The notes beneath the pieces were generated by a model. The model was not told the DNA's origin. It worked only from the letters and a program-made list of their open reading frames with translations, and made no database searches. Below are positions 2,351 through 29,119 of a stretch of DNA of 64,000 bases, one piece after another (positions within the stretch are counted from its first letter, which is position 1; each line of letters starts with the position of its first letter). The DNA comes from a virus (taxonomy: Duplodnaviria; Heunggongvirae; Uroviricota; Caudoviricetes). The stretch lies in the IMG/VR virus record IMGVR_UViG_2718218133_000001; one strand, written 5' to 3'. The translations under genes and the position numbers were made by a program.

Positions 2351-2377
2351 ACGCCCTTTAATGGGCGTATTTTTTTA
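2351..2377 (+). terminator. hairpin (ACGCCC..GGGCGT) followed by T-run; left boundary of the AT-rich island
   Basis: stem-loop plus T7 run seen in sequence. Confidence 0.4.
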
Positions 2378-2386
2378 GGATTTAAA

Positions 2387-3280: not shown

Positions 3281-3331
3281 TATTTTGTAACCCATAATCG
3301 CTTTATGGGTTACGTTAAATTTGCAATAAAA

Positions 3332-3808
3332 TTAATCGCCGCGCTTTAAGCATCCATCGTTTTTAGCTTGTTGATATAATTTACTTAGCCCAGAAAGAGG
3401 AAATGTGGCAATTTTTTCATTATCAACATAAGCATCGATCGCATTAGCATTTGAATCTGCTGCATCTTGCCAAAAGGCATACCACCAAGAATCTCCAACC
3501 ATTGACCCAAGATTGCTAAAAGGGTATTGCTCACCATCTAATGTTAATACTATTTTACTCTTGTCAGCATTATACTCTTTTTTATTATTCGACGACCTTA
3601 GCAACAGGCCTAAACTACCGGCACTATCTGGTGATCCATACATGAAACCCATATCACATAAAAAACTTATCTTATCACCATTTTGATTATGGATTGTATA
3701 TTCTCTCCCCCCTCTATCTTCAATTACATTCCATTGTAGAGGATCAATTTTTGCAAATACTCCTGCTGAAATTAACGATACAAATAATAAAAACCATCTC
3801 ATATTCAT
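3332..3808 (-). CDS. secreted/periplasmic protein with N-terminal signal peptide (MNMRWFLLFVSLISAGVFA)
   Basis: 158-aa ORF in AT-rich island; signal-peptide-like N-terminus; 22 bp downstream of the membrane ORF on the same strand. Confidence 0.55.
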   Translation of the reverse strand: MNMRWFLLFVSLISAGVFAKIDPLQWNVIEDRGGREYTIHNQNGDKISFLCDMGFMYGSPDSAGSLGLLLRSSNNKKEYNADKSKIVLTLDGEQYPFSNLGSMVGDSWWYAFWQDAADSNANAIDAYVDNEKIATFPLSGLSKLYQQAKNDGCLKRGD

Positions 3809-3830
3809 TTTTTTCGCTTCTTATCTGTAA

Positions 3831-4181
3831 TTATTCTGCAATATCATTTGCCCATTGCACGGCAGCAAAATGAGTGCCCAAGCCACTCAGGAAAGCAATT
3901 ATTCCCAAAACAATACTAGCTGCTGTTGATTCAAACAAAGCACCAATGCTATAGCCAATAGCTCCCCATACTAAGCTAAAGACAATCATCAATGGTATTG
4001 CCAGAAATTTTATTCTTAAACTAAAAATCAGTCCAAGAAATGAACCGCCAAAGGCCCACCATGATTTAGACATTAAACCTATCAGTATTGACAGAATTCC
4101 TATTTCAATAAAGAGAATATTAGATTGCTCTTCATTGAATTTCGCATTTGTTACACCTTTACGAACATGTTCAGATGACAT
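3831..4181 (-). CDS. small integral membrane protein (about 3 TM helices)
   Basis: 116-aa ORF, hydrophobic stretches, AT-rich; forms a two-gene operon with 3332..3808. Confidence 0.5.
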   Translation of the reverse strand: MSSEHVRKGVTNAKFNEEQSNILFIEIGILSILIGLMSKSWWAFGGSFLGLIFSLRIKFLAIPLMIVFSLVWGAIGYSIGALFESTAASIVLGIIAFLSGLGTHFAAVQWANDIAE

Positions 4182-4327
4182 GATTAACTATCTCCAGCCA
4201 CAGATAAAACGCCTTAAAATAACATTTTGTAGCACAAAGTTTCACCATGCAATGGTCAAAGTCTTTGATCCATATCAATTAGAGTTATACATTTTAGTTG
4301 CATAGCTAATAATTTATACGGACACAA

Positions 4328-4344
4328 ATTGCTCTAATTATTTT
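4328..4344 (+). promoter_or_regulatory. C1 repressor operator (ATTGCTCTAATTATTTT), Op51-like, upstream of c4/icd/ant
   Basis: match to P1 C1 operator consensus ATTGCTCTAATAAATTT. Confidence 0.55.
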
Positions 4345-4539
4345 GTTTTTTTAGTTTCATATGCTACATTAACTCGCTTGCGTGCTAATGCATTTTCGGT
4401 TTATCCTAAACAAGCATCTTAGTAAAACGGATGCCGGGATTGGAACCCCGGATAATGCAAAAGGCGACACAGACGCCAAAAGCGTCTTTTTTATGTCATG
4501 CCATCGCACAACCATACGTAGCACATAGCTACGAGATCA

Positions 4540-4640
4540 ATGGTAGTGCTGGCTGGGCTGCCGAAAGGCAGGCCGGTTCCCTTTTGCGCCGGTAGTTCCA
4601 ACCCAGTCAGTGCTACCGCCATTGAGATTGGAACCTCACG
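4540..4640 (+). ncRNA. c4: probable c4-like antisense immunity RNA region (immI)
   Basis: position between Op51-like operator and icd as in P1; structured GC-rich leader; boundaries approximate. Confidence 0.3.
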
Positions 4641-4677
4641 CGGTAGCTCCTTAAATTAGCAAAAGGAGGCTGCCATT

Positions 4678-4899
4678 GTGGCTACTATCCCTACCCCAAC
4701 TCATCCTGAATTTATCTGGCGCTTTTACTCCTGCCAGAAACGTCACTATCACTTCGTTATTGCACCGACAGAAGATGAGGCTCGCTCTCAGCTTCCGGAT
4801 GCACCCTGTATTTTCTCTGCCCGCTTTTCTACCGATTCGCGCAATTCTCTCAGTTACTGGAGCCTCCCTGTTAACGCTTCTGCTCAGGAGGGACTATGA
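4678..4899 (+). CDS. icd: Icd-like cell division inhibitor, translationally coupled to ant
   Basis: 73-aa ORF with GTG start after AAAGGAGG RBS; stop overlaps ant start; matches P1 immI organisation. Confidence 0.5.
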   Translation: MATIPTPTHPEFIWRFYSCQKRHYHFVIAPTEDEARSQLPDAPCIFSARFSTDSRNSLSYWSLPVNASAQEGL

Positions 4900-5987
4900 G
4901 AACGTCATTAGTCACCCGTGAAGAGATGATCGAGGCAATTGAACAGCACACTGCCTGTATCAGTACCAGGGATATACCAGGCGTTATTGCCAACTACTTC
5001 ATGATCACCAAACAACTTTACCGGAGAAAGGACAAGAACGCGGTTCACCGTATCCTGTTGTCTGATATCCGCGAATACCTGCTCGAACAGGGTCATCTGA
5101 ATTACGCAACCGTCGCAGCCGAAGCACGCAAGGAGGCACACAGAATGAAAGCAAATAACGTTAAATTAGAAAAAATTCATGCACCTTCAGTTCAGGAATC
5201 AGAGCTGGTGGTTGCTCAAAATCAGCCTGATGAAATTCCCGTTCTGGAATGGCTGGGAGTACGTGTAGTGACAACTGAGACTCTTGCTAAGGGGTATGGG
5301 ACCGATGAAGCGAATATTCGTAAAAATTTGTCTCGCAACCCCGATCGCTTTGAAGAAGGTAAGCATTACTATCTCTTAACTGGTTCAAAATTAAAGGAAT
5401 TTAAAAGGCTAGTGACTATTAGTCACTTGGTTAGCAAATATACAAGTCAGGTAATTCTCTGGGCCGAGCGCGGCGCTGCACGCATGTCTAAGATCGTGGA
5501 CACAAATGAAGCTTGGGCATTCTTTGAAAAACTGGAAGACAGCTACTTCCGGCAAAAAGAACAGCAACCGGTCGCAATCCCCCAAACATTACCAGAAGCC
5601 CTACGCCTGGCTGCCGAGTTAGCAGAACAGAAAATGCAGTTGGAACAACAGCTGGTGGCCGCAGCCCCTAAAGTCGATTTTGCCGACCGGGTATCAGTGG
5701 CCAATGGAATCCTGATCGGGAACTTTGCAAAGGTCGTTGGACTTAAGCAAAACGCCCTTTTCTCATGGTTGCGCCAGAATGGCATTCTCATGGCTTTTGG
5801 AGCGCGCAAAAACGTACCGCGCCAACAGTACATCAACGCCGGGTATTTCACGGTGAAAGAAGTGGTGCTGGATGATGAAAATGGCTACCAGATACGGCTG
5901 ACGCCCCAATTAACGGGTAAAGGCCAGCAGTGGTTAACTCGCAAGCTACTTGATGCTGGTTTGTTAAAACCAGTAGCAATAGGTTAA
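4896..5987 (+). CDS. ant: antirepressor Ant (KilAC-type C-terminal domain)
   Basis: 363-aa ORF; C-terminal about 130 aa is paralogous to the kilA C-terminus. Confidence 0.7.
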   Translation: MRTSLVTREEMIEAIEQHTACISTRDIPGVIANYFMITKQLYRRKDKNAVHRILLSDIREYLLEQGHLNYATVAAEARKEAHRMKANNVKLEKIHAPSVQESELVVAQNQPDEIPVLEWLGVRVVTTETLAKGYGTDEANIRKNLSRNPDRFEEGKHYYLLTGSKLKEFKRLVTISHLVSKYTSQVILWAERGAARMSKIVDTNEAWAFFEKLEDSYFRQKEQQPVAIPQTLPEALRLAAELAEQKMQLEQQLVAAAPKVDFADRVSVANGILIGNFAKVVGLKQNALFSWLRQNGILMAFGARKNVPRQQYINAGYFTVKEVVLDDENGYQIRLTPQLTGKGQQWLTRKLLDAGLLKPVAIG

Positions 5988-7830: not shown

Positions 7831-7845
7831 ATTGCTCTAATCTGG
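7831..7845 (+). promoter_or_regulatory. C1 operator-like half match (ATTGCTCTAATCTGG)
   Basis: partial consensus match just after repL stop. Confidence 0.3.
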
Positions 7846-8091
7846 AGTCACCTGGCGTTTTCAGTTTGAGGTCGGAGATGCAATCTGATTTTTTACAGTT
7901 AGCGATTACTTTTTGCAGGGCATCGTTGAGACATATCCATATATAAAAACCCAAAGCCAGATCAAAACTTGTACTGATAAAAACACAGCTAACCATCACA
8001 ACTTGTAACGTTTATAATTAGTAAAAGAGTGATACATTGCTACTTTTACATATTTTTTGACTTAATTCATGGATAGTAATGGAGATGCATA

Positions 8092-9147
8092 ATGACTTAT
8101 GCTGGCACACAAACAGCAGATAACGCCGGGGATACCATGAAATCATATGCTATTTGGAATAATAAAGGTGGCGTAGGAAAGACCTACTTATCTTTCGCTA
8201 TGGCCTGTGAATACGCAAGGCAAAATCCAGAAAAGCGTATTATTTTTGCAGATATGTGCCCGCAGGCTAACTTATCTGAAATATTGCTCGGCGGTAACGG
8301 TACTGGTGCTGCTAACCTCGCGAGCTTAATTCAACAACGAAAAACTGTCGGTGGGTACTTTGACAGAAGAACTCGCAGCCCCCACATGCTTACCGGTTCA
8401 GAAACAAGTTTCTTAATTCATGTCTCTGAAATTAACGAGCATGTCCCTGACAATGTATTTTTGATTGCAGGCGACCCAAGCCTGGAAGTTCAGGCGCAAG
8501 TAATCAATCAGTTAAGCAGCGTAAACTTACCAGTTGACTCATGGAAAAGCATCCACCTGTGGCTACGAGATTTGCTTGTTGCATGTGCACAACAACAAGG
8601 TATCGAAGAAACCATTTGCTTTATTGATTGCAATCCCAGTTTCTCTGCCTATACCGAACTATCACTGATAGCAGCAAATGCAATTATAATACCTTGCTCA
8701 AGTGATGGTTCTTCGGCTCGAGCAGTGGATAACCTAAGCCAGTTGGTTTATGGCGTTGGAGTACAAAACGATTATCGTTCTGTTAACTTTTACGATCGGT
8801 GTCAACAGTTTGGTCTAGCGGTTCCTGTCATTCATTCTCTAGTTTTTAATCGTTCGACAGAGTATGACAAACGAGCAAGTAAAGCGTTTTCGGCAATGTT
8901 CGACGAAATCAGGGATAGAGCTGAAAATCTGCGGACGAATAAACCAACAGCGTTCCAAGGCGGAAATTTAAAAACGTTTACTGTGCCAGATAACCATTCC
9001 GTAGCTATAGTATCTTCCCATCTAGGAAGACCTCTATTTGATATAAAACCAGGCAGATATCAGATCCATGACACTGAGCCACAAATCAATAATGAACCAT
9101 TAGAAAGATATGGTGCAGCAATCGAACGTCTTGTTCAGAGTTTATAG
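8092..9147 (+). CDS. ParA/Soj-family deviant Walker-A ATPase (KGGVGKT), no adjacent ParB
   Basis: 351-aa ORF, GGAG RBS, Walker A motif near N-terminus; occupies the P1 rlfA position. Confidence 0.65.
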   Translation: MTYAGTQTADNAGDTMKSYAIWNNKGGVGKTYLSFAMACEYARQNPEKRIIFADMCPQANLSEILLGGNGTGAANLASLIQQRKTVGGYFDRRTRSPHMLTGSETSFLIHVSEINEHVPDNVFLIAGDPSLEVQAQVINQLSSVNLPVDSWKSIHLWLRDLLVACAQQQGIEETICFIDCNPSFSAYTELSLIAANAIIIPCSSDGSSARAVDNLSQLVYGVGVQNDYRSVNFYDRCQQFGLAVPVIHSLVFNRSTEYDKRASKAFSAMFDEIRDRAENLRTNKPTAFQGGNLKTFTVPDNHSVAIVSSHLGRPLFDIKPGRYQIHDTEPQINNEPLERYGAAIERLVQSL

Positions 9148-9171
9148 TGGCTTATCTCAGTCATAATGGCT

Positions 9172-9206
9172 AAAAAAAGGCTGCAACAGAGGTTGCAGCC
9201 TTTTTA
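9172..9206. terminator. bidirectional intrinsic terminator (AGGCTGCAAC..GTTGCAGCCT, A-run upstream, T-run downstream)
   Basis: seen in sequence between convergent genes. Confidence 0.6.
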
Positions 9207-9216
9207 TAAAATTACA

Positions 9217-9504
9217 TTAACAGACTGGTAGCGATAGTAAATTATTATTCCATCGATTGTCTGCATACGTTCTAATAAACTGCCTTCCACCATTACCAGG
9301 ATTAACAACCCCAACTTCTACACGATTACCTGCATTATCTGTTACATAGAATGTATGGAGATTATTATCAATAGCATTAATTACCTGCTCAACAGTCCAT
9401 TTCCCATTGCTAGTATTAAATTGAGGACTTCCCACATGAGTAATATGCTCATGGATTGATTGCGAGCCGGAGAGGGTAATGCAAGTAATGCGTACATCAG
9501 CCAT
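9217..9504 (-). CDS. DUF3892-like small phage protein (likely start MADVRIT)
   Basis: ORF-track ORF trimmed to internal ATG; sequence pattern recalled as DUF3892-like. Confidence 0.45.
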   Translation of the reverse strand: MADVRITCITLSGSQSIHEHITHVGSPQFNTSNGKWTVEQVINAIDNNLHTFYVTDNAGNRVEVGVVNPGNGGRQFIRTYADNRWNNNLLSLPVC

Positions 9505-9792
9505 ATATGCTTCCTTTATTCTATAGATTATAGGAATTGCGTCGTCCAAAAAACAAACAACACAATAACAATAAAGAAACATACACACAACAAAAACTAA
9601 CGCTATTTATTGATAGATTTGCCTGATGAATGCTAGCTCTCTTTGCTACCTAGCACTCAAACAAATAACAGAAGAAAGCCCCAGATAACATTACGCGTCC
9701 TGCAAGACGCTTAACATTAATCTGAGGCCATATCTATGCTTAGCATATCTAGATTAACCCTCTCCCCTTTTAAGGAGCAAGGAATTTTACTG

Positions 9793-10425
9793 CTATGCCG
9801 CCTTTCCAGTTATGGATTCTGCGACAAGAACAACCCCATGCTTACTTCGATCCGGATGTTCACTCCATATCTCGGATTCAGGAATACTTTTCCCGTCATA
9901 GCAAACACGTTCGCCATCAAATGGGTAATACTGAGCAGTATCGGTGTCAAGGATAAAAACTTTTAGTTCGGAAGAACGACGAGCGATGTGCTGCCAAAGA
10001 GCCTTTCCGCCTTCGTATTGCTCATTGTCACTTAGCAAAACAACTCCGGCTTTTGAAGCTACGGTTTCATAAACAAAAGTGGCTAAACCGACATCCCGGA
10101 CGATTCCATCAACCACGATACCTTCAATCTGGGCAACATCGTTATCTTCCCAGAACTTCCTCACCAGTACGCCTTCAAGCTGTGGGCGACGTTGAAGTTC
10201 AAGAGTGGCGACAACCTTATGGCGCATATCACCATCGATAATAGAAGGCGCAGCCTCTATTACAGCTGCAAATGGGGTTTTGGAATCCCATATAACCTGG
10301 TAAAGCACACCCTGGATGGTAACTCCGTCCAGGATCGAAAATCGACGAGCGACAGTACCCGGGGAGTACGACATTGGAATCACAGCCATTTTAGAGTCCC
10401 CCTTTAACAGTACAGGCACAAACAT
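9793..10425 (-). CDS. hypothetical phage protein
   Basis: 210-aa ORF (alternative start MAVIPMSY at 10389). Confidence 0.45.
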   Translation of the reverse strand: MFVPVLLKGDSKMAVIPMSYSPGTVARRFSILDGVTIQGVLYQVIWDSKTPFAAVIEAAPSIIDGDMRHKVVATLELQRRPQLEGVLVRKFWEDNDVAQIEGIVVDGIVRDVGLATFVYETVASKAGVVLLSDNEQYEGGKALWQHIARRSSELKVFILDTDTAQYYPFDGERVCYDGKSIPESEIWSEHPDRSKHGVVLVAESITGKAA

Positions 10426-10514
10426 CTACCTCAATAATTGTAGTTTATTAGAACATTAATAATCTAACATAAAACTCCAGACAATGTTATCGATGCATGT
10501 TTATATAAAATAGT

Positions 10515-10545
10515 TATAAAAAAAGCTCCCGAAGGAGCTTTAAAA
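10515..10545 (-). terminator. hairpin AGCTCC..GGAGCT with flanking A/T runs, downstream of 10561..11070
   Basis: seen in sequence. Confidence 0.45.
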
Positions 10546-12523: not shown

Positions 12524-14113
12524 TTACTTAATAAGCAGCGGTACGCCCTGGATACGACGGGCTACGCCAGTCGGGCAGCAGGCCCAGACTACTTCCCATT
12601 TATCGAATTCCGCCTGCGTAACTTTCAGCACATACGGTTCTGTACCGTCAGCATCGGGATCACGAGGAGCCACCAGAGCGCCGGAGGCGACAAAGCGATC
12701 TAAAAGTTTGGTCATCCCTTTAGTCAGGCCAGCCGCAGTAATACCGTCCGGGCTATGCTTCATCTGTCGGGCTAACTGGACAAAGAAACGACTGATTGCA
12801 TTCATCAGGGATGGGACGTGCTGGAAGTGCAGATAGTTATCCTGCGTGCAGCAAGTTAAAGCATCGTCGATGATCATCTGGCCAGAGGTGCCAACAGATA
12901 CTTTATTGAGACGGCCCTTGACCATTGCTTCTTCGTCCGGGGTATCTTCCGGATACAGCGGTTGAATTGACGCACGAGCAATGACGGCACGTTCTTCACC
13001 AGCCGGTGAGTAATGCCAACCGCCGACATCAGAGTTTTTCTTGACGCCACGAGCTTTCGCCGCATACGCCGCGCCAGACAGACCGAAGACCACACGGGAT
13101 TGGGTCCATTTGTCTTTGCAGGAGAACGGGTAGTGATAGACAGAACAGCTTACATAATCGGTACCAAGTAAACCGGTACCCTCAACAGCTGTTAGTGCTT
13201 CTGCGTACCTTAATGTCGGTTTGACATCAAAGAAGCCATCAATCAGGCGATCTGCACAGATTTTACCTAATGCGGTGATAGCCGCATTGTCATAGCAGCC
13301 CAGGCCAAGAACAGCGGTGTACATGTACGGCGCATTATTCAGCACTTTAACCGCACGCAGGTAAGCAGCGGTTGAGATTTTCGACTGATCGCCATTGGTA
13401 CCGCCAGTGAATGCCACCGATTTTTTATTTGTTACTTTCGCTGTAGAAATCAGCTCTTCATTAACAACCGCACGCAGATATTTAGAACGGGCTTCCAGAG
13501 CCGTAGGCAGATAACACAAGCGGCCCATGTCATCTTTCGCTTCTTCCGCCAAAGACACAGTGTGTGTCTCCAGGGTCGTTACCACACCGAGCGAAGTCGT
13601 CTGGGTCAGTTTTAAGAGGAAGCGTTCATTACCCGCGCTGTCCGCTGTTGCCGTTTCGATGGTTAACTCACGGGTAGGTGAAATACACGGATCACCATCA
13701 TCAACGTAGATAGCAAAGGCTTCGCCGCTATCAAGTTCAATTTCAGAACCGTATGGCAACGCACTGTTAGCCGGTTCGCCTGATTCATCGAACATAATAA
13801 TCGGGAACTTCGCATCATCCGGAACAGCACGGACAACATAACCAGACGTTTGCTGAATAGCTTCGTACACATGGCGAATTGGTTCAAACTGTGAGCCGGA
13901 AGACGGCTTCAGCGGTTCGCCAAGAACATCTTCGTAATTGGACTCAGTAACCGCAAGAACAGTAAACGGCTTGCCACGCGCAAATACGCCAATACCAGCC
14001 CACAAGCTGCTATTTAATGCAACACCGGTAGATAACGTCGCATCGGCATTGATCGGGCTAACCGCGACGCCGGATGCATTACCTAATGACTGTTGAATTG
14101 AATATTGAGACAT
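12524..14113 (-). CDS. tail sheath protein (P1 gp22 position)
   Basis: 529-aa ORF immediately downstream of the capsid gene; size and position match P1 sheath. Confidence 0.55.
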   Translation of the reverse strand: MSQYSIQQSLGNASGVAVSPINADATLSTGVALNSSLWAGIGVFARGKPFTVLAVTESNYEDVLGEPLKPSSGSQFEPIRHVYEAIQQTSGYVVRAVPDDAKFPIIMFDESGEPANSALPYGSEIELDSGEAFAIYVDDGDPCISPTRELTIETATADSAGNERFLLKLTQTTSLGVVTTLETHTVSLAEEAKDDMGRLCYLPTALEARSKYLRAVVNEELISTAKVTNKKSVAFTGGTNGDQSKISTAAYLRAVKVLNNAPYMYTAVLGLGCYDNAAITALGKICADRLIDGFFDVKPTLRYAEALTAVEGTGLLGTDYVSCSVYHYPFSCKDKWTQSRVVFGLSGAAYAAKARGVKKNSDVGGWHYSPAGEERAVIARASIQPLYPEDTPDEEAMVKGRLNKVSVGTSGQMIIDDALTCCTQDNYLHFQHVPSLMNAISRFFVQLARQMKHSPDGITAAGLTKGMTKLLDRFVASGALVAPRDPDADGTEPYVLKVTQAEFDKWEVVWACCPTGVARRIQGVPLLIK

Positions 14114-14173
14114 AACTTTCCCTGTTATGCGCCCCGCGCGGGGGCGCTATGTTAAACGGAGAGCTTCCCCTGA

Positions 14174-15901
14174 TTACTCAGAGTCACCAGCATCAATCGT
14201 GTTACCGGTCAGGAAGTTAATTCCGCCATTTTTTGCCATAGTCAGAGTTACACGGGTGAAGTAGTCAGCACCGTTGCGTGGATGCATATCGTTGATAGCC
14301 GAACCCCACAGAGTGGTTCGGTTGACTAGTGCCGGGGTGGTCGGATGCTGGAATGGGACAGCCGGGACTGCATCACCAGTTACGAAGCCCGCTTTGCCCG
14401 GATTTTCATCACGGACGTAGCACAGCACATCCATTGGGCTGAACTGGATACCGTCGGCGGTCAGGTTCGTACAAATACCTTCTGGTACTTCGAACACTTT
14501 GACGTTGCCGAACAGAGTGCCAATGTAGTGGACGTATGGGGTCTGGATGTAATCTTCTGCTGGCTGGAAGAAATCCTTCGGCAATTGTTTGAAGAAAGAT
14601 GCCGCATCAGCACCGGCATACATCCCCATCGCACCAGAAGATTTAACACGCTCAATAATACCGCGATATACCGTCTGGAATTTGCCTCGAATGATGGTTG
14701 CCCACACATCAAAGGTCTGGTTAGCTGGTAGTGCAATATCAAAGGAGTCGGTCGCAAGAGTTCGCCAAATCATGATACGAAGACGAAGCATATCTTGCTC
14801 ATGGGACAGGTATTCCTTCAGGGTGCGGAACTGTAGGGAGCCAAGATCCAGACCAAATTCACGCTGTGCTTCATACGCCGCCTGTACCGTGTGCTCAGCC
14901 GCGATGACGAACTGGTTTGGGAACAGGGTGTAACTCTTCATTTCGTGGTTGATAAGTGGGATCAGCTCAGGAGCTGCTTCTATATTGATCTCCGCCTCAA
15001 TGGCGATCTCAGTGCCTTTATCCGGCGCTTTGGAGAACGACAGGGCAATCTGACCAACGTTGTAATTCAAAGAGCAAGTAACAGTGATTTGTTCGCCTGC
15101 TTTGTTATTGAATGTGTGAAGCAGAGTACCGGAGCCGTTATCAACAACAGACTTAATACGGTTAACGTAGATGTTTGTGCGACCTTTGCGAATCGGGACA
15201 CTCTGACCTTCGACATCTTCCATCTTGAAGGTTGCAGTTTTGCTGGTGCCGTCGGAGCTTGCAACCAGCACATAGCGGCGGCGCAACTGGCTGTACACGC
15301 CAACGGATTGCATGTCCAGAACATCACCAATAGCATAGGAGCCAAAAGAAGAACCCGCTACGTTAAAGATTTCATAGATTTCGGACTTGTCACGCGTAAC
15401 CGGAATGAATGTACACGCATCAGCGGTAGCTGCCCCCAACTGAACAGGCAGGATCATCGCCAAGAATAAAGGCAGACGCATAACCCCGTCAGAAACACTC
15501 ATCATCTCTGCCGCGACTGATTCCAGCATCGCTTTATTGGTGGCGTCCATGCTATTGCGGGTGGACTCAATCAGGCAGTTTTCCAGCGTCTGATGGCAGG
15601 AGGCCAGAATTTCCGGACGTGGCATAGATTTATGTGTTGCGGCGTAGTCAGCCAGTGCACTTGCCCACGCTGTAGCGATTTGAGCGGTGGCATTATCAGA
15701 GATACCCGCAAAAATTGGGTCTTTACGTGCAGCTTCAAGGATAGATGCGGCACGCGCGGCATCATCTTTAATGAATTGGTTATCAGTACCGAACTGCGCA
15801 GTGCTTGCCCAGCCAAGCACAGCTTTAGAGCGTTTTGCGATATCTGCAATACGATTCTGGTATTCGCGTAAGTTACTCAATTTACTCTTCCTTAAACACA
15901 A
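14174..15901 (-). CDS. major capsid protein (P1 gp23 position); probable start at internal TTG near 15880 after AAGGAAGAG RBS
   Basis: 575-aa ORF adjacent to parS as gene 23 is in P1. Confidence 0.5.
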   Translation of the reverse strand: MCLRKSKLSNLREYQNRIADIAKRSKAVLGWASTAQFGTDNQFIKDDAARAASILEAARKDPIFAGISDNATAQIATAWASALADYAATHKSMPRPEILASCHQTLENCLIESTRNSMDATNKAMLESVAAEMMSVSDGVMRLPLFLAMILPVQLGAATADACTFIPVTRDKSEIYEIFNVAGSSFGSYAIGDVLDMQSVGVYSQLRRRYVLVASSDGTSKTATFKMEDVEGQSVPIRKGRTNIYVNRIKSVVDNGSGTLLHTFNNKAGEQITVTCSLNYNVGQIALSFSKAPDKGTEIAIEAEINIEAAPELIPLINHEMKSYTLFPNQFVIAAEHTVQAAYEAQREFGLDLGSLQFRTLKEYLSHEQDMLRLRIMIWRTLATDSFDIALPANQTFDVWATIIRGKFQTVYRGIIERVKSSGAMGMYAGADAASFFKQLPKDFFQPAEDYIQTPYVHYIGTLFGNVKVFEVPEGICTNLTADGIQFSPMDVLCYVRDENPGKAGFVTGDAVPAVPFQHPTTPALVNRTTLWGSAINDMHPRNGADYFTRVTLTMAKNGGINFLTGNTIDAGDSE

Positions 15902-16004
15902 GGCACTTGTGTGAATCCCTTTTCGGAAGAGATTTTATTGAAAGTCACTTGTTGACTTTCTCGTGACAAGCAAATTTTTTATTTTTTTCGGGAGGAGGGG
16001 AGGA

Positions 16005-16105
16005 AGGTAAAATCCAAGGTGAAATCGTGGCGATTTCACCTTGAAATTTTATAGGTATTTACTTTAAAAACAGTAGGTTAATAGTGAAATTTGAATGGCG
16101 AAAGT
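16005..16105. other. parS: parS partition site (boxA ATTTCAC heptamers, boxB TCGCCA hexamers, palindrome GTGAAATCGTGGCGATTTCAC)
   Basis: motifs read from sequence immediately downstream of parB. Confidence 0.65.
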
Positions 16106-17107
16106 TTAAGGCTTCGGCTTTTTATCGAGGCTCTTTCTAAGGATATGCCCAATCATCCTGTCGAGTTCTTCCTGTAGCTCTTTTGAAAGTCGATTAAACT
16201 CATAAGAAAATGCACGGCCTTTCACGCGCTTCCTTGCAAAGCGATCCTTGTCCTCAAATTTCCATAATTCAGTAACTACGGACTTATCTTTAGAACCTTT
16301 ATCCGTGAGTAGTGAGGCTTCCTTTGTTATCAAGCGCAGGATTTTATTTTTAACTTCATCTTCGGCCATTTCTTCAATGGATAAGATGTCGTTTATTTCC
16401 GGGGATATGTTTTGAATAAGCTGATCAAACTCTAAATTCTTGTTCCCCATTTCGTCGCCAACAGCACAAAGCGTTTTGTAGTCCGAAAAGGTTAATTCCG
16501 ACTGCACAGGGAAAAGGGCGACTAATTCTTCCGGAGCACTCGCAGCCTGGAGAGCACGCGTGACCTTCGCCTGAGACAGCCCTTCTTTGGCTGCAATATC
16601 CTTCTGACTCATCCCATCATTTTTCATTCGCATCAAACGCAGACCTATTTCTCGAATGCTGTGCTGCAATGCTGTCTGAACGTCTTTCGCTAAATTTTGC
16701 GCTTCCTGAACGCTGATCTCCTGGTCCGTGACTAAAACCCGCAACCCTACGTTCTCTAAGATGGCAGAAGCTCGACGCCGGGAACCATCCAAAATTTCAA
16801 TTTTCCCTGTAGCCCGTCTAACACCTATTGCAGGGTAAAATTGCTGATGCTTAATAGTGCTTCGGATACTTTTTAATGATTTTGGCGTAAGAGATGCCTG
16901 GTCACGCCCGTTGTTATGCTGATCAACAAAGGTATCGCTTTCTACCTGGTTCGGAGGTATTACCTCTTCAATAAATGTGGCCTGGCGACCAGTTGATAAC
17001 TTGAATACCTGCTCGACTCGATCGCCAGAGGCTGAAGAACTATCAAATCCGCTTAATATTGAAGGATTAAGGGTTCGCCCAATTGTTGGTCTGTTTTTCT
17101 TTGACAT
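16106..17107 (-). CDS. parB: ParB partition protein
   Basis: 333-aa ORF matching P1 ParB in size and sequence as recalled; downstream of parA. Confidence 0.85.
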   Translation of the reverse strand: MSKKNRPTIGRTLNPSILSGFDSSSASGDRVEQVFKLSTGRQATFIEEVIPPNQVESDTFVDQHNNGRDQASLTPKSLKSIRSTIKHQQFYPAIGVRRATGKIEILDGSRRRASAILENVGLRVLVTDQEISVQEAQNLAKDVQTALQHSIREIGLRLMRMKNDGMSQKDIAAKEGLSQAKVTRALQAASAPEELVALFPVQSELTFSDYKTLCAVGDEMGNKNLEFDQLIQNISPEINDILSIEEMAEDEVKNKILRLITKEASLLTDKGSKDKSVVTELWKFEDKDRFARKRVKGRAFSYEFNRLSKELQEELDRMIGHILRKSLDKKPKP

Positions 17108-17123
17108 GGGGGTTTCTTACTCC

Positions 17124-18320
17124 TCAGTTAGATCTGATAAATTCAATACGGTCAAAAACTGCTTTAGCAAAATCTTCCGCAGCAATTCGCGCGTTCTTCA
17201 ATGCATCAGCACTACCAACATACGTTGCCGGGTTAGCTGAAATAACAGTGTCAAAAGACTCGCCGCAGCGTTCAAAACCGTCAAGGCGAGGGAGGACAAC
17301 ATCAAGCATATCCCCACCGAACACTTCTTTAGCCAGGCTATGGCAATACTTATGGTCTGCCTTGTTACTCAACTTGGACATAAAACCAATGTTAGTTGCA
17401 AGCTGACACTCGCAGCCTTCATCCGAAATGAGTTTCACCAACTCAGGAAGGCGGGCAACGTATTTAAGCGATGAGTGGAAATCAACCGTTGCAGGCGGCA
17501 GAGGTGTAAACAGTATATTGGCCGAGGCCAAAGCATTTTTCAGGAAGGCGTCAAGGTGAGGACCACTATCAACGAGGATAAAGTCATAATCGCTCTTCAG
17601 CTTATCAATCACATTTTCTTTCAGGACTGCATGGATGTTCTGACCCGGTAGATGCTCATTGCACAGCTCTCTCCAATCGGATGCAATAAAGGCATCGTCA
17701 ATCGACGCAGGCATAACGTCAACCCCAGGTACAACAGAAGGAACAATAAACTCCTCTAACAGCTCTTCACGGCTTACATTCTGCAACATAGCCTGTGCAG
17801 ATGTTGCGTTTACGATACCAATAGAGTGTTTATGGCTTAAAAACATCGTTGCTGAAGATTGCGGATCAAGGTCAATAACCAGAATCCTTAAATCTTCCAT
17901 CAGAAGATGAGGATGAGCACGCATTGCATGCGCCAGAGAAACCGTCGATACAGTTTTTGACACACCGCCTTTAAGATTGGAGATGAAAATCACATACGCT
18001 TCGCTGTAGCGATCCCGGTATTTTGGCACTCCGCGATGTTCATATATGTCAATGATGTTCTGAATTGACATCGCATATTTCATTGAAGAGCCAGCAGGGC
18101 GTTTATCGAAAACATAACCCTTTTCTTCCATTTCACTTACGGCATAGTCAACGTTCGCACGAGTCAGTAGAGGCAATTTTGCCAGTGCCGCTTTCGCATA
18201 GACCTGGTAAAACTCGTTCGCGTGTAGCTCATCCTTTTGCAACTGTACTTGTTCAGTCAGAACATTGAGCATTCTATTTGCTCTTTGAGCAACCTTGTGA
18301 AGCTGGCTGGAATCACTCAT
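17124..18320 (-). CDS. parA: ParA partition ATPase (type Ia, N-terminal HTH extension)
   Basis: 398-aa ORF with Walker A KGGVSKT; matches P1 ParA size. Confidence 0.85.
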   Translation of the reverse strand: MSDSSQLHKVAQRANRMLNVLTEQVQLQKDELHANEFYQVYAKAALAKLPLLTRANVDYAVSEMEEKGYVFDKRPAGSSMKYAMSIQNIIDIYEHRGVPKYRDRYSEAYVIFISNLKGGVSKTVSTVSLAHAMRAHPHLLMEDLRILVIDLDPQSSATMFLSHKHSIGIVNATSAQAMLQNVSREELLEEFIVPSVVPGVDVMPASIDDAFIASDWRELCNEHLPGQNIHAVLKENVIDKLKSDYDFILVDSGPHLDAFLKNALASANILFTPLPPATVDFHSSLKYVARLPELVKLISDEGCECQLATNIGFMSKLSNKADHKYCHSLAKEVFGGDMLDVVLPRLDGFERCGESFDTVISANPATYVGSADALKNARIAAEDFAKAVFDRIEFIRSN

Positions 18321-18488
18321 CGAAAGTCATCCTTTATGCTGTATTTTTGAATTTAATTAAAAATGCTGCATAAAATAATAATGTATGCGTAGATGCTTGT
18401 ACATAGCATTCTCTGCATGTTTGGTTCATTTTGCACGATTGAGAGTTACAAGGAGGGCACAAAAAAGCCCCGTTCAGGGGCATCAGTG

Positions 18489-19298
18489 TTATTTGCTAAG
18501 AGCAGCGAATAATCGTTCGAAATCGATAGTATCTATAGCACGCGTAAGCGCCGGAAGTTCAGCCTCAAAGTACCCGTGTCGATCGTAAAAGAAGGGACCG
18601 AAGAGCGAGGCATGTTGGATTCTACTTCGCCCCAGCCCGGACACACAGTTAAGCCCATTACCGGCTAAAAGGCTAAAAAACTTCTCTGGATTATCGTGGT
18701 AAAGCTGGGAATCAATGGTGGCGGTTAACTCTTCCATAGGGAAGCACACCCGCCCTGTATCCCAGGGATATTTAGTCCGAAGCATAAACATTGCTTTCAG
18801 CAATTCACATTGAGCGCGGATCGCGTCCGGTTCATAGCCAGATATGGAGACATAAGCCACGTCCCTCATTCCTGCGTCATCTTTGAAAGTCACGATAGAA
18901 GTAACATCCAGCTCTTTTTCGAAAGAGCAAGCAGCATCTACTGGACGCTGAAGTAAATCATTCGACTTAATGCGCTCGAGAATCCCTCCCCACATATCAT
19001 TTAGATATTCGATATGAGCCAAAACCTTATCAAGACACTCTCGTGTAAACCATTCAGTATGCCCGCCACCGGCGCTTTTCTCCCACGGCGCATTCCAGGG
19101 GAAAAAGGTTGCGTGTAAAGCCCGCTCAAGATTAACCATTGCCAAACGCGTACCACGATAGACCCGTGAAAGCGCAAAATCGGGACTCACTTGTAGCCCT
19201 TTAAACCGTGCCAATGGACCACATGAAATGCCGATTTTAAAAGTATCTCCGTTCTCTGGCACCAGAACGTAGAGGTAGTGTTGTTTCTCTTCTTGCAT
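18489..19298 (-). CDS. T5orf172 (GIY-YIG-like) domain protein with about 170-aa unknown C-terminal domain, between incA and parA
   Basis: 269-aa ORF; N-terminus YLYVLV..KIGIS...LH..F...HTEWF pattern characteristic of T5orf172 family. Confidence 0.55.
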   Translation of the reverse strand: MQEEKQHYLYVLVPENGDTFKIGISCGPLARFKGLQVSPDFALSRVYRGTRLAMVNLERALHATFFPWNAPWEKSAGGGHTEWFTRECLDKVLAHIEYLNDMWGGILERIKSNDLLQRPVDAACSFEKELDVTSIVTFKDDAGMRDVAYVSISGYEPDAIRAQCELLKAMFMLRTKYPWDTGRVCFPMEELTATIDSQLYHDNPEKFFSLLAGNGLNCVSGLGRSRIQHASLFGPFFYDRHGYFEAELPALTRAIDTIDFERLFAALSK

Positions 19299-19309
19299 AT
19301 CAATACCAC

Positions 19310-19590
19310 TGCTTGATGAGAACCGCGCAAATGTTGACTATGCGCGAAGGTTAATGTGAATAGTTGACTATGCGCGATGTGACTACAGTCAAAAGTTGAC
19401 TGTAGTCGATTTAACTCCACCAAAGATCGACTATGTAAGATATTGTCGGGAGAAACGTTGACTATACGCGATGAAATGCCCCTAAAAGCCATCTCAATAG
19501 CGACTTGCAGAATATTGACGCCAGCAAAAATCCACCAGCGTCAACGAATGTCGCCTATAGTCAACTTCTCGCTATCGCATATAGTCAATA
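19310..19590. repeat. incA: incA iteron array (RepA-binding repeats, core TTGACTATGCGCGA, mixed orientation)
   Basis: multiple copies of the core read directly downstream of repA. Confidence 0.6.
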
Positions 19591-20475
19591 TTATGGATTG
19601 CGCTTATGGATCTGGAAGCCGATTTTCCTGCCGTTTTTTATCTCTGAAAATTTAAGATATTCAATAGCTTCCAAATCTTTCATGGCTTTTCTGATAACGC
19701 TATTTTGCACGCTAACGGATGATTTGAGATTAAGCCTCGCTCTAAGGCGCTCAATGCTGACAGGTGCCGGGTTGGCGGGTAGAGCCTCAAAGAATGTATA
19801 CAGTACCTTGGCCGTCTCTTTGCGCCCTAGTTTATCCAGCATCTTCAGCTTCAGGATTCGCTTATAGTCAACATAGTAAAGTTCAGATAGCTGTTTCTGC
19901 GGCTGGATCTCGATAACATCAAGCTCGGTATTCAGGCTGCTATATGCCAACAAGTTGACGTTAATGTTATTGAGATGACCTTTTGCCGCCGGGAAGCGGA
20001 ATTTGACAACTGTCTGCTGAATGCGTGTCAGAGAATCATCAATACTTTTACGGAACGCCTTTGAAAGGCGCTTACGTGGATAGCCGCATCGATCGGCAAA
20101 CTCGGAGAATGGCAGGGTGATTATACCGTCATCATCAGGTGCGTAGTCAAACAACGCGGAGGTTATGCCCACCCACACCTTAAAATCAGTATCCATATCC
20201 AGGCGTGGACCATGAATTTCAATTCCCTCATAGCCTTCCTGCTCAACAATTTTGAGGCTTGATAGTTCTTCAGTTGCGTTCGTTGTGTTTGTTGTAACTG
20301 ACGATCCGCGACGTAGCGCCACATTGGTAGATTTTAAGGTTGGCACAAACACACCTAAGCGCAACAAAGCGATGGGTTGTATAGTGCTGTTGTTATTGGG
20401 CTTCAGGCTGTGGATTTCTCCTGTATTTCCTGCAACTTCTTCAACGCTAAGGAAGCCTTTACTTTCTTCCGGCAT
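19591..20475 (-). CDS. repA: RepA plasmid replication initiator (RepE/RepA iteron-binding family); ORF open to 20511, likely start ATG at 20473-20475
   Basis: flanked by iteron arrays; conserved GPRLDM.TDFK motif; GGAGAA RBS before internal ATG. Confidence 0.8.
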   Translation of the reverse strand: MPEESKGFLSVEEVAGNTGEIHSLKPNNNSTIQPIALLRLGVFVPTLKSTNVALRRGSSVTTNTTNATEELSSLKIVEQEGYEGIEIHGPRLDMDTDFKVWVGITSALFDYAPDDDGIITLPFSEFADRCGYPRKRLSKAFRKSIDDSLTRIQQTVVKFRFPAAKGHLNNINVNLLAYSSLNTELDVIEIQPQKQLSELYYVDYKRILKLKMLDKLGRKETAKVLYTFFEALPANPAPVSIERLRARLNLKSSVSVQNSVIRKAMKDLEAIEYLKFSEIKNGRKIGFQIHKRNP

Positions 20476-20559
20476 CACGGTTTCTCCATGTGTGGCGCGG
20501 CCTGACGTCAATTTGGATGGCTGTTATCAACAGCTGTGAATATTCAGACTCTAAAATCG

Positions 20560-20670
20560 CTTACAGTCAATGTTTCTGTCGCGTATAGTCAACAATAAAT
20601 CGCGTGCAGTCAACAATAAATCGTGCACAGTCAACATAAAATCGCGTATAGTCAATGTTGATCCCATTTC
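20560..20670. repeat. incC: incC iterons of plasmid origin oriR (about 21-bp period, core TCGCGTATAGTCAA)
   Basis: 4-5 tandem repeats immediately upstream of repA. Confidence 0.6.
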
Positions 20671-20696
20671 AGGCCAGTAATGACGCGGCTTACAGC

Positions 20697-27119: not shown

Positions 27120-28047
27120 GCACAACAGGTAAGGGTATTTTGCGACGTCGGAGATCGCCGAGCTTGGCAGAGGGTTCGAATCCCTACGAAGTACCCTTAC
27201 CGTTGTGATGAATGCGCAGGCTGATGCGCGAAAGACATTGCAGCTATTGCGGAAAAGAGCTGTTCGGCGGGGCAATTAAACGCCCGTGAGAGTCTGAAAT
27301 AACCGCAAGCCGGAGATCAGCACCGGTCATCACAACACAACAGGTAAGGGCATTCTCCCTTATGGGGCTTGGCTTAAATGCATCGAGTGCTCTTACCGTT
27401 GTGATGAAGTGCAGCTCTTTGAAGCAACCAGAAGATAAGCATCTGGCTTCACAACATAAACCGCAGGAACGACCAATAAACGGTAGTCCGTATGGAGAAC
27501 ACCCCGTTGAGGAAGAGGCCTGGCCGGAACCGTAACCGGCACTACAACGTTGAGAACACTGGCGTAACGGGGTCATATCCCAATCTACGAATAAATGTTG
27601 CGTTGCAGCGTGACAACCAGTGTTCTCAACATTGTGGTGAATGCACAGGCTGATGTGCCGCAACTACAGTAGTGCGCGCTTTGCGGGGCTTGCTACAACC
27701 CTGTGTCGGAGTTCAGCACCGACCATCACAGTTTGATTCTCTGGCATGAGCATAACGCTGAAATAAGTCCAGCTTGGTGCGGCCCGATCACCCGCCGTTA
27801 GCTCCACGAAACGGAGCACGTAACAGGTAAGAGCATTCTCCTGTAACGGGTTCATATCCCAATCTACAGGTCCACCAAGAATGCTCTTTCCGTTGCGGTG
27901 AATGCGGCTAAGCGCACGCGGGGAAATGGTTATATCAGTCCATTCATTTCTCCTTGTTTCCCCGTCCACGGTGGATAACCAGCCAAAGGACACCGGGAGG
28001 CACCCGGCACCGCAGCTTTTTTATTCGTTAAATAATGGAGTGAGAGG

Positions 28048-28284
28048 ATGCAGAACAATCCGAACAAATGTCGAACGCTATGGGTGCGGTTATATATTTA
28101 TGCCGTCCTCTGTTTGATTGTGTCACTGGTTCTGTATGTTTGGCTTTTGCCAAATATGATCTCATCTAACAGCACAATACTTGTATTGTTGGGAGTCCTT
28201 CTCGCGCTCATTTACCCGGCTTTCGCAGTAGTCTTTTTTCGTGAAAAAACCAGGAAATTAATTAATGAAAAAAACGTTGATTAG
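28048..28284 (+). CDS. small two-TM membrane protein upstream of the SPFH lipoprotein
   Basis: 78-aa ORF, GGAGTGAGAGG RBS, two hydrophobic helices; overlaps plp start. Confidence 0.5.
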   Translation: MQNNPNKCRTLWVRLYIYAVLCLIVSLVLYVWLLPNMISSNSTILVLLGVLLALIYPAFAVVFFREKTRKLINEKNVD

Positions 28285-29092
28285 TGCAGCGATTATTTTG
28301 GGTTCTTTATGTCTGACCGGATGCGATCGGGTAGAGCCAGGTAACGTAGGGATCAAAGTAAATAAGCTGGGGGATGATAAAGGTATCGGTGAAGTAGTTG
28401 GCGTTGGTCGCTACTGGACAGGCTTGAATACTGAAGTTTATATCTTCCCGACCTTTAAGCAAATGAAGACATACGATGAGCCGTTCAGCTTCCAGATGAG
28501 CGACGGAACAACCATTGGTTACCACATCGGCGTAGCCTACAAGGTTGATCCAGCAAAAGTCACAACGGTATTTCAGACCTATCGCAAAGGTGTAGATGAT
28601 ATTACTGATACCGATCTACGCCAGAAGGTTGCAGATGCTCTGAACCGGTTAGCCAGCAAAATGACCACCGACAAATTTATCGACGGTGGCAAATCTGAAT
28701 TGCTTGATGCAGCCCTTAAAGACATTCAGGAAGAAATGACGCCAATCGGCATTCAGGTGATGAGCCTCTCTTATGTAGGTAAGCCAGAATACCCGCCAAC
28801 AGTTATTGACAGTATTAACGCCAAAGTCACGGCAAACCAAAAAACCCTGCAACGCGAGCAAGAGGTCAAACAACGTGAAGCAGAGGCCAACATGCTGCGC
28901 GCGGAAGCTGCCGGACAGGCTGATGCTATTCGCACAAAAGCCCAGGCCGAAGCTGATGCCATTCGTTTACGTGGTGAAGCTCTGCGCCAGAACCCCGGTG
29001 TTATGGAGTTGGAAGCGATCAACAAATGGAACGGTACATTACCGCAGTATATGACCAGTAATACCGCTGTTCCGTTTGTTCCGGTGAAATAA
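28265..29092 (+). CDS. plp: SPFH/band-7 domain lipoprotein (Plp-like)
   Basis: 275-aa ORF; lipobox LTGC; coiled-coil C-terminus (QREQEVKQREAEANMLRAEAAGQADAIR). Confidence 0.65.
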   Translation: MKKTLISAAIILGSLCLTGCDRVEPGNVGIKVNKLGDDKGIGEVVGVGRYWTGLNTEVYIFPTFKQMKTYDEPFSFQMSDGTTIGYHIGVAYKVDPAKVTTVFQTYRKGVDDITDTDLRQKVADALNRLASKMTTDKFIDGGKSELLDAALKDIQEEMTPIGIQVMSLSYVGKPEYPPTVIDSINAKVTANQKTLQREQEVKQREAEANMLRAEAAGQADAIRTKAQAEADAIRLRGEALRQNPGVMELEAINKWNGTLPQYMTSNTAVPFVPVK

Positions 29093-29119
29093 AAGCGTAA
29101 GCAAAATTGGCAGTAATCC

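What the first reader, a model, noticed from the sequence alone, without database searches (positions are those of the whole stretch)
18489..19298. T5orf172 (GIY-YIG-like) domain gene inserted between incA and the par operon
The plasmid maintenance cassette is otherwise textbook (oriR, repA, incA, parA, parB, parS), but a 269-aa ORF sits between the incA iterons and parA. Its N-terminus has the T5orf172 pattern (YLYVLV...KIGIS...LH..F...EWF), a domain related to GIY-YIG nucleases and seen in some defence and anti-defence proteins. The 170-aa C-terminal domain is unassigned. Being co-directional and upstream of parA, it would be transcribed with or into the partition operon.
Basis: partly seen in the sequence, partly recalled or inferred. 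Interest (0 to 1): 0.6.

Follow-up and report, generated by a model that had tools for sequence, protein, structure and literature searches.

The report
Nuclease gene riding P1 replicon cassette
The gene is real and carries a predicted DNA-cutting domain, but it is a long-standing, already annotated and dispensable passenger of an alternative replication module found in about 400 P1-like phage-plasmids, and its role is still unknown.

Summary
The 269-aa ORF exists (18489-19298, minus strand). Its N-terminus passes Pfam's T5orf172 cut-off (27.5 bits against 20).

It is not an insertion into a textbook P1 cassette. It lies inside a 2,250-bp alternative replicon cassette (18423-20672). That cassette holds the origin iterons, a RepA only 42% identical to P1 RepA, the incA-like iterons, this gene and a terminator. 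This is the published p0111 type.

The gene sits at this position in about 400 plasmids and in 411 of 5,426 complete E. coli genomes. RefSeq calls it "GIY-YIG nuclease family protein". A diverged P1-like clade shows the same pairing, so the linkage to this RepA type is old.

It is the fastest-evolving gene locally: 44% identity, against 67-89% for the partition, RepA and capsid proteins. Its pN/pS is 0.33. It has been knocked out repeatedly.

The acidic C-terminal domain has no homologue among 1.84 billion representative proteins, and it could not be modelled.

Best reading (confidence 0.38): a conflict nuclease resembling a homing endonuclease, not a maintenance gene. A terminator and the par operon's own promoter argue against co-transcription with par. 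Interest is modest.

The parts
18489..19298 (-). orf269: a 269-aa T5orf172/GIY-YIG-family protein. RefSeq names it 'GIY-YIG nuclease family protein'; it matches PHROG 2876 over its full length.
19044..19277 (-). N-terminal T5orf172 domain (residues 8-85). It holds Y8-L-Y10, K21-I-G23, R31 and E82-W-F, all invariant in the 44%-identical orthologue.
18492..18983 (-). C-terminal orphan domain (residues 106-269). It is acidic (pI about 5.1) and 32% identical to the only diverged orthologue. It has no Pfam, PDB or other homologue.
18457..18481 (-). Intrinsic-terminator-like hairpin (GCCCC-UGAAC-GGGGC) followed by UUUUUU, 7 nt after the stop codon.
18375..18403 (-). Promoter-like site TGTACA-17-TATTAT upstream of parA. 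It lies in the ~100-bp stretch that aligns without mismatch with P1, where the P1 record annotates Ppar. Homology to P1 begins 17 bp upstream of the -35 hexamer.
19333..19589 (.). incA-like control iterons: six copies, four in one orientation and two in the other. The last copy lies 35 bp upstream of the orf269 ATG.
19591..20511 (-). repA of the p0111 type. It is 42% identical to P1 RepA and 84% identical to the RepA of the diverged locus L003. RefSeq annotates a 294-aa form that starts downstream of this ORF's TTG.
20557..20656 (-). Five origin iterons spaced 21 bp apart (the incC equivalent).
18423..20672 (.). The 2,250-bp replicon-specificity cassette that replaces 1,491 bp of P1. It holds the origin iterons, repA, the control iterons, orf269 and the terminator.
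16106..18320 (-). parA (18320-17124) and parB (17107-16106). ParA is 99.7% and ParB 100% identical to P1. They are downstream neighbours, not part of the cassette.

Best explanation
orf269 is an accessory 'conflict' endonuclease resembling a free-standing homing endonuclease. It belongs to the p0111-type replicon cassette of P1-like phage-plasmids and is not a plasmid-maintenance gene.

Shown here:
- It has a T5orf172 domain.
- It sits at the edge of the replaced cassette.
- It has been linked to this RepA type since before two backbone clades split.
- It evolves fast, and it is dispensable.

Inferred:
- The N-terminal domain cuts DNA with the GIY-YIG-type Tyr/Arg/Glu set (Y8/Y10, R31, E82).
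- The rapidly diverging C-terminal domain sets what is cut, through DNA or through a protein partner.
- The gene is expressed weakly in the plasmid state. The source would be read-through from the autoregulated repA promoter or a weak promoter buried in the last iterons.
- The protein acts on co-resident or incoming related DNA, such as a rival P1-like element carrying the other cassette. Repair or loss of the cut molecule then favours the cassette that carries the gene.
For: - Pfam T5orf172 scores above its cut-off. T5orf172 is a GIY-YIG subfamily. A glutamate-dependent nuclease activity was shown for ICP1 Odn, and the family is treated as homing endonucleases in phages (PMC8263062; PMC10448857).
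- The candidate catalytic residues are invariant between orthologues that share 44% identity.
- The gene abuts a recombination boundary. P1 homology resumes 67 bp past its stop codon. That is the situation described in 'Nuclease genes occupy boundaries of genetic exchange'.
- Between clades it is 44% identical. RepA is 84%, ParA 89%, ParB 67% and the capsid protein 81%. The N domain is 64% identical and the C domain 32%.
- Within the E. coli lineage its pN/pS is 0.33. Neighbouring genes lie between 0.00 and 0.15.
- Independent knock-outs recur: S112* in 5 of 45 loci and in an O111:H8 plasmid, Q228* in SJ46, a 1.76-kb insertion, and several frameshift alleles.
- No P1 late promoter and no C1 operator lies nearby, which places the gene in the plasmid-state regulatory domain.
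Against: - The C-terminal domain is acidic (pI about 5.1) in both orthologues. It has no Zn-finger or other recognisable DNA-binding module, unlike I-TevI-type enzymes and 87% of the T5orf172 homing endonucleases surveyed.
- The gene was not found uncoupled from the p0111-type repA. It has no paralogues and no other genomic context. So there is no direct sign of independent mobility.
- It has been retained since before two backbone clades split. That fits a selected function better than a pure invade-and-decay cycle.
- Nucleotide diversity shows no trough centred on the gene.
- Nuclease activity is untested. Alignment to solved GIY-YIG structures is sub-threshold (E=0.15) and covers only the first 60 residues.
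Confidence: 0.38

Rival explanations
1. It is a single-protein anti-phage or anti-plasmid defence nuclease carried by the prophage-plasmid. The C-terminal domain senses an invader protein or state and releases the nuclease domain.
For: - An acidic, fast-evolving C-terminal domain fits a protein-sensing module better than a DNA binder.
- The gene appears to belong to the plasmid-state regulatory domain.
- It is dispensable and often lost, as defence genes are.
- T5orf172 nucleases do take part in conflicts between genetic elements.
Against: - No PADLOC family matches.
- The family is confined to one position in one replicon type of one phage-plasmid group. Defence genes normally appear in many contexts and taxa.
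- There is no partner or immunity gene.
Confidence: 0.22
2. It is a domesticated T5orf172 protein with a regulatory or accessory role for this replicon. It could modulate RepA-iteron handcuffing, copy number or par expression, by analogy with CapR, a nuclease-derived repressor.
For: - The gene is strictly and anciently linked to one RepA/iteron type and starts directly after the last control iteron in both clades.
- CapR gives a precedent for domestication of this family.
Against: - At least 7 of 45 sampled loci carry knocked-out alleles on otherwise intact replicons. These include the studied phage SJ46 and O111/O157 plasmids.
- pN/pS is 5-6 times that of repA and parB (0.05 and 0.06) and far above parA (0.00).
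- The candidate catalytic residues are conserved.
- There is no DNA-binding signature.
Confidence: 0.12
3. It is a decaying relic with no current function, carried along only because it lies between essential elements of the cassette.
For: - Nonsense, frameshift and insertion alleles recur.
- Its pN/pS is the highest in the neighbourhood.
Against: - pN/pS of 0.33 still indicates purifying selection, and about 80% of sampled copies are intact.
- A full-length orthologue persists after divergence to 44% identity, with motifs conserved along both domains.
Confidence: 0.13

Closest known systems
T5orf172-family putative homing endonucleases of ICP1, T5-like and other phages (Barth et al. 2023, PMC10448857)
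   Same: - Same Pfam domain.
- A single free-standing gene next to essential genes.
- It lies at a boundary of genetic exchange between related genomes.
- Its alleles are unstable, with stops and frameshifts.
- It has a two-part architecture with the nuclease domain at one terminus.
   Different: - It has no CapR/DUF723/DUF4397 Zn-finger DNA-binding domain; the partner domain is an acidic orphan.
- It is single-copy, with no paralogues.
- It was not found away from one repA type.
- It lives in a plasmid replicon rather than in a lytic-phage gene cluster.
Odn (ICP1 Gp88), the origin-directed T5orf172 nuclease (PMC8263062)
   Same: It is a T5orf172 nuclease tied to a conflict over iteron-type replicons. 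Odn cuts a rival element's origin at its iterons. Here the gene lies next to iterons, in a cassette that exists in two alternative forms.
   Different: Odn's specificity domain is a copy of the rival's RepA_N domain and is N-terminal. Here the C-terminal domain shows no similarity to either RepA type (hhalign probability below 1%). No target is known.
GIY-YIG free-standing homing endonucleases of T4 (I-TevI and the Seg proteins). This comparison rests on established knowledge of those families, not on a test made here.
   Same: An N-terminal catalytic domain of about 100 aa followed by a separate C-terminal domain, with an intergenic position between conserved genes.
   Different: Those enzymes have basic, recognisable DNA-binding modules, whereas this protein is acidic overall (pI 5.5). 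The only similarity to a solved GIY-YIG structure is sub-threshold (1ywl, a protein of unknown function, E=0.15).
Gene gp57 of phage-plasmid JL22 and the equivalent genes of RCS47 and SJ46 (PMC9603915; RefSeq 'GIY-YIG nuclease family protein')
   Same: It is the same gene at 98-100% identity, in the same position between repA' (p0111) and parA.
   Different: Nothing differs. This is the known, uncharacterised gene.

Membership tests
Pfam T5orf172 (PF10544; GIY-YIG clan) | Whole-protein score at or above Pfam's gathering cut-off of 20 bits | tested here: met
   The score is 27.5 bits at E=4.7e-6. Residues 8-85 match profile positions 2-87 of 101. PHROG 681 'endonuclease' also matches residues 4-100 at E=5.5e-9.
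GIY-YIG nuclease superfamily (catalytically competent member) | Conserved Tyr of the first motif, the second motif, the catalytic Arg and the catalytic Glu, all alignable to characterised enzymes | tested here: inconclusive
   Y8/Y10, K21-I-G23, R31 and E82 are invariant between the two orthologues. The first 60 residues align to the GIY-YIG structure 1ywl with the motifs and the Arg in register, but only at E=0.15. The alignment does not reach the Glu position. Activity is untested.
Free-standing homing endonuclease | A recognisable DNA-binding or specificity domain attached to the nuclease domain | tested here: not met
   The C-terminal domain has no Pfam hit at E up to 10 and no PDB hit. 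It is acidic (pI 5.1) and has no conserved Cys cluster. The AF2 models are poor (pLDDT 54 and 47). Winged-helix proteins appear among the Foldseek matches only at E>0.3.
Free-standing homing endonuclease | Presence/absence polymorphism of the gene alone at an otherwise homologous site | tested here: not met
   The gene is absent from IncY-type relatives, but it always differs together with repA and the iterons. In PLSDB, 401 records hold the gene and 403 hold the cassette, so no clean gene-less p0111 cassette and no IncY cassette with the gene came to light.
Free-standing homing endonuclease | Cleavage of the gene-less allele and biased inheritance of the gene | not testable with these tools
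   This needs nuclease assays and co-residence or co-infection crosses.
Odn-like chimeric origin-directed nuclease | A specificity domain homologous to a replication initiator's DNA-binding domain | tested here: not met
   hhalign of the C-domain profile against the p0111-type RepA and the P1 RepA gives probabilities of 0.3% and 0.2%.
Known anti-phage defence systems (PADLOC-DB v2) | A match to any defence-protein model | tested here: not met
   No family matches at E up to 1.
P1 plasmid-maintenance set (repA, inc, par) | Required for stable inheritance, so conserved intact and under strong purifying selection | tested here: not met
   pN/pS is 0.33, against 0.00-0.06 for parA, repA and parB. 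Nonsense, frameshift and insertion alleles occur on otherwise intact replicons.

The most novel reading that the evidence does not exclude
The gene is a replicon-linked 'incompatibility weapon'. In this reading the nuclease is carried by the p0111-type cassette and attacks the rival IncY-type cassette of P1-like elements that share the same partition system, or the rival's initiator-DNA complex. That would help keep the old two-cassette dimorphism seen in both backbone clades. The orphan acidic C-terminal domain would be a new targeting module that works through a protein partner rather than through direct DNA recognition.
Probability: 0.12. Interest if true: 0.7.

Novelty: new member of a known kind. 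Interest (0 to 1): 0.3.

Why it matters
P1-like phage-plasmids are common carriers of resistance genes. This gene alone is in 7.6% of complete E. coli genomes. They come in two replicon types, and why both types persist is not explained.

A nuclease has stayed tied to one type since before two backbone clades split, yet it evolves faster than the partition, RepA and capsid genes around it. That makes it a reasonable candidate for a factor in competition between co-resident elements. It also offers an easy genetic handle, because natural nonsense alleles already exist.

If it turns out to be only a decaying passenger, nothing changes for P1 biology. As it stands the gene is already annotated and has been noted in print. 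The additions here are its evolutionary pattern, the orphan C-terminal domain, and the correction that it is not an insertion and is unlikely to be part of the par transcript.

Tried and rejected
- **Structure route.** Two AlphaFold2 runs, one full length and one of the C domain alone, each used the only available two-sequence alignment. They gave pLDDT 54 and 47. Foldseek against the PDB returned nothing at E<=0.001. Replication-initiator and other winged-helix proteins (RctB, pPS10 RepA WH1, JetB, ORC/Cdt1) recur among matches at E 0.3-8. I treat that as a lead only.
- **Sequence route for the C domain.** An exhaustive HMMER profile search of 1.84 billion representatives found only the family itself. 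Pfam at E up to 10 and a PDB profile search found nothing.
- **Odn-type chimera.** There is no similarity to either RepA type.
- **Defence-family membership.** PADLOC has no match, and NCBIfam has none either.
- **Sweep or co-conversion signal.** Gene-wise synonymous diversity looked lowest at orf269. A sliding-window pi over 38 aligned sequences (the window plus 37 loci) showed a broad low-diversity region across par, orf269 and most of repA, not a trough centred on the gene. I rejected this as evidence.
- **Regulation.** No sigma-70-like site passes the scan upstream of the ATG. The best hand-found candidate, TTCACA-18-CAACAT, overlaps the last iteron, scores 8 of 12 and is not conserved in L003. 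No P1 late-promoter box or C1 operator lies near the gene.
- **Intermediate RepA relatives.** A search for plasmids with intermediate RepA that might carry the gene in another context found only the same approximately 400 plasmids (84% identical to the L003 RepA) and then RepFIB-type proteins below 60% identity.
- **Literature.** No paper links T5orf172 or GIY-YIG to P1-like elements functionally.

Full report
**What is in the sequence**

The ORF reported at 18489-19298 is real. It lies on the minus strand, starts at an ATG (19298) and encodes 269 aa.

Reading the minus strand, the order of features is:
- five origin iterons (20557-20656);
- repA (20511-19591);
- six further iterons (19333-19589);
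- the ORF;
- a GC-rich hairpin followed by a U-run (18481-18457);
- a promoter-like site, TGTACA-17-TATTAT (18403-18375);
- parA (18320-17124);
- parB (17107-16106).

The iteron consensus matches 12 times in this 1.3-kb stretch. Only 1.5 matches are expected in the whole window. The hairpin folds at -11.9 kcal/mol, with a z-score of -2.5 against shuffles.

**Domain assignment**

Pfam-A gives T5orf172 (PF10544) over residues 8-85, at 27.5 bits against a curated cut-off of 20. PHROGs places the full length in phrog_2876 (unknown function). Residues 4-100 also match an 'endonuclease' family. PADLOC and NCBIfam give nothing.

The C-terminal ~165 residues have no Pfam match at E up to 10 and no relative among PDB sequences. 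An exhaustive profile search of 1.84 billion representative proteins found nothing outside the family itself. The domain is acidic in both known lineages (pI about 5.1) and has no conserved cysteine cluster.

Two AlphaFold2 attempts failed for lack of homologues (pLDDT 54 and 47). The fold searches were not significant.

**It is not an insertion into the P1 cassette**

Against P1 (NC_005856), the window is 99.0% identical from 15901 to 18422 and 95.8% identical from 20673 onward. The 2,250 bp in between replace 1,491 bp of P1.

The junctions are sharp. One lies 17 bp upstream of the Ppar -35 hexamer. The other comes immediately after the last origin iteron, before the GATC-rich part of oriR.

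The RepA encoded here is 42% identical to P1 RepA. P1 has about 190 bp and no gene between incA and Ppar.

This is the replicon type that plasmid typing calls p0111. [quoted passage not shown] It found the two types in 24 and 31 of 55 P1-like elements (PMC9603915). An earlier survey also listed ORFs inserted between repA and parA in pSvP1 (PMC6906374).

**Distribution**

| Collection | Result |
|---|---|
| Phage records | 12 hold the whole cassette (RCS47, SJ46, JL22, phi456 and others) |
| PLSDB plasmids | 403 match the cassette, 390 at full length, 97.8-100% identical |
| PLSDB plasmids | 401 match the protein |
| Complete E. coli genomes | 411 of 5,426 carry the gene: 413 places on plasmids, 7 on chromosomes |

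RefSeq annotates the gene as 'GIY-YIG nuclease family protein'. I found no copy outside P1-like elements. The only other hit is an N-domain-only match of 34% identity in a Cupriavidus plasmid.

**An old linkage to one RepA type**

The only diverged full-length relative (P0004, 44% identity) sits in the same place, between repA and parA, on a 95.7-kb P1-like contig (L003). The closest annotated backbones to that contig are Salmonella P1-like plasmids. One of them (L051) has a 286-aa RepA and a 394-bp iteron-filled gap before parA, with no gene.

Pairwise identities give a two-by-two pattern:

| Comparison | Identity |
|---|---|
| RepA, window vs L003 | 84% |
| RepA, P1 vs L051 | 84% |
| RepA, any pair across the two types | 40-42% |
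| ParA, within a backbone pair (window/P1; L003/L051) | 99.7%; 96.7% |
| ParB, within a backbone pair (window/P1; L003/L051) | 100%; 91.9% |
| Capsid protein, L003 vs L051 | 91% |

Both backbone clades therefore carry both cassette types. The two RepA types have diverged equally between the clades. The T5orf172 gene goes with the p0111 type in both. So the gene has belonged to this cassette since before the clades split.

**How it evolves**

Between the clades, the protein is 44% identical. RepA is 84%, ParA 89%, ParB 67% and the capsid protein 81%. The N domain is 64% identical and the C domain 32%.

Within the E. coli lineage I compared 45 loci from IMG/VR and GTDB with the window:

| Gene | pN/pS |
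|---|---|
| orf269 | 0.33 |
| upfA | 0.15 |
| capsid gene (gp23) | 0.09 |
| parB | 0.06 |
| repA | 0.05 |
| parA | 0.00 |

Knock-outs are recurrent and independent:
- S112* occurs in five loci and in an O111:H8 plasmid, where RefSeq annotates a 111-aa GIY-YIG protein plus a separate hypothetical protein.
- Q228* occurs in SJ46.
- One locus has a 1.76-kb insertion with a 229-bp deletion.
- Several frameshift products exist (P0013-P0016), along with a C-terminal-only ORF (P0003).

By cluster size, the intact form has 1,241 member sequences. The 111-aa form has 151 and the C-terminal-only form has 229. The gene is therefore dispensable for replication, partition and phage viability. It is still under some purifying selection.

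**Regulation**

No scan-passing promoter precedes the ATG on the minus strand, and no terminator-like site lies between repA and the ORF. No P1 late-promoter box or C1 operator is nearby. The last iteron lies 35 bp upstream of the ATG, and closer still in L003.

From this I infer weak expression in the plasmid state, by read-through from the autoregulated repA promoter or from a weak iteron-embedded promoter. So does the par promoter, which lies in the stretch identical to P1. The hairpin is not conserved in L003.

**Interpretation**

T5orf172 is a GIY-YIG subfamily. Nuclease activity that depends on a conserved glutamate was shown for ICP1 Odn. That enzyme cuts a rival element's iteron origin using a RepA-derived DNA-binding domain (PMC8263062). 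In ICP1 and many other phages, T5orf172 genes behave as free-standing homing endonucleases: they sit beside essential genes, decay often and mark boundaries of genetic exchange (PMC10448857).

The present gene shares several of those traits:
- the domain itself;
- invariant candidate catalytic residues (Y8/Y10, K21-I-G23, R31, E82);
- the boundary position;
- the decay pattern;
- a fast-changing second domain.

It departs in three ways. First, the second domain is acidic and is not one of the Zn-finger modules found in 87% of such genes. Second, it shows no similarity to either RepA type. Third, the gene was not found separated from its repA type.

I therefore commit, at about 0.38, to an accessory conflict nuclease resembling a homing endonuclease that acts on co-resident or incoming related DNA. 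A sensor-plus-nuclease defence protein comes next (0.22), then a relic (0.13) and a domesticated replicon accessory (0.12). The remainder is left for roles not considered.

**Verdict**

The 'inserted gene' and 'par co-transcription' parts of the interpretation are not supported. The gene is already annotated and noted in print, and its function is unknown.

What is new here is threefold. The gene is an old, strictly linked component of one of two alternative replicon cassettes. It evolves faster than the partition, RepA and capsid genes around it. Its C-terminal domain is an orphan. That justifies modest interest (0.30) and a simple set of experiments.

Noticed in passing
window 18423-20672, compared with L001 (P1), L003 and L051: Two backbone clades of P1-like elements each carry both replicon cassette types. 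RepA is 84% identical within a type across the clades and 40-42% identical between types. This looks like an old, maintained replicon dimorphism.
   Followed up: partly
window 19858-19872 (inside repA): A further iteron copy (GTTGACTATAAGCGA, one mismatch) lies inside the repA coding sequence. It has the same orientation as the origin iterons.
   Followed up: no
window 19591-20511: The mechanical ORF for repA starts at a TTG and gives 306 aa. RefSeq records annotate an 885-nt (294-aa) gene. In 16 of the 45 loci the alignment to this ORF starts at its second base. The true start is probably downstream of this TTG.
   Followed up: partly
window 1-38461 compared with P1 44421-79999: The window is collinear with P1 but mosaic. 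There is no P1 match, or only about 70% identity, at 2369-5576 (the immunity region), 7842-10518, 18423-20672 and 28023-29110. Identity inside the capsid gene (about 14000-15600) drops to 87-92%.
   Followed up: no
L046 6295-8057 (IMG/VR UViG_2645727563_000002): A 1.76-kb insertion interrupts the gene near the boundary between its two domains and is accompanied by a 229-bp deletion. I did not identify the inserted DNA.
   Followed up: no
protein P0005 (197 aa; E. coli plasmid, 108-kb contig): This is a chimeric ORF. An unrelated 79-aa N-terminus is joined to residues 106 onward of the C-terminal domain, exactly at the domain boundary. Plasmid NZ_CP019262 likewise keeps only residues 99-269.
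   Followed up: no
E. coli genome search: Seven of the 420 places that hold the gene are on chromosomes rather than plasmids. These could be integrated P1-like elements or assembly artefacts.
   Followed up: no
L050 (E. coli O111:H8 plasmid p7_55_62A-3): This O111:H8 plasmid carries the S112* allele. That allele leaves a free-standing 111-aa nuclease domain plus a separately annotated 126-aa C-terminal ORF. The 111-aa form has 151 member sequences in the protein collection.
   Followed up: partly
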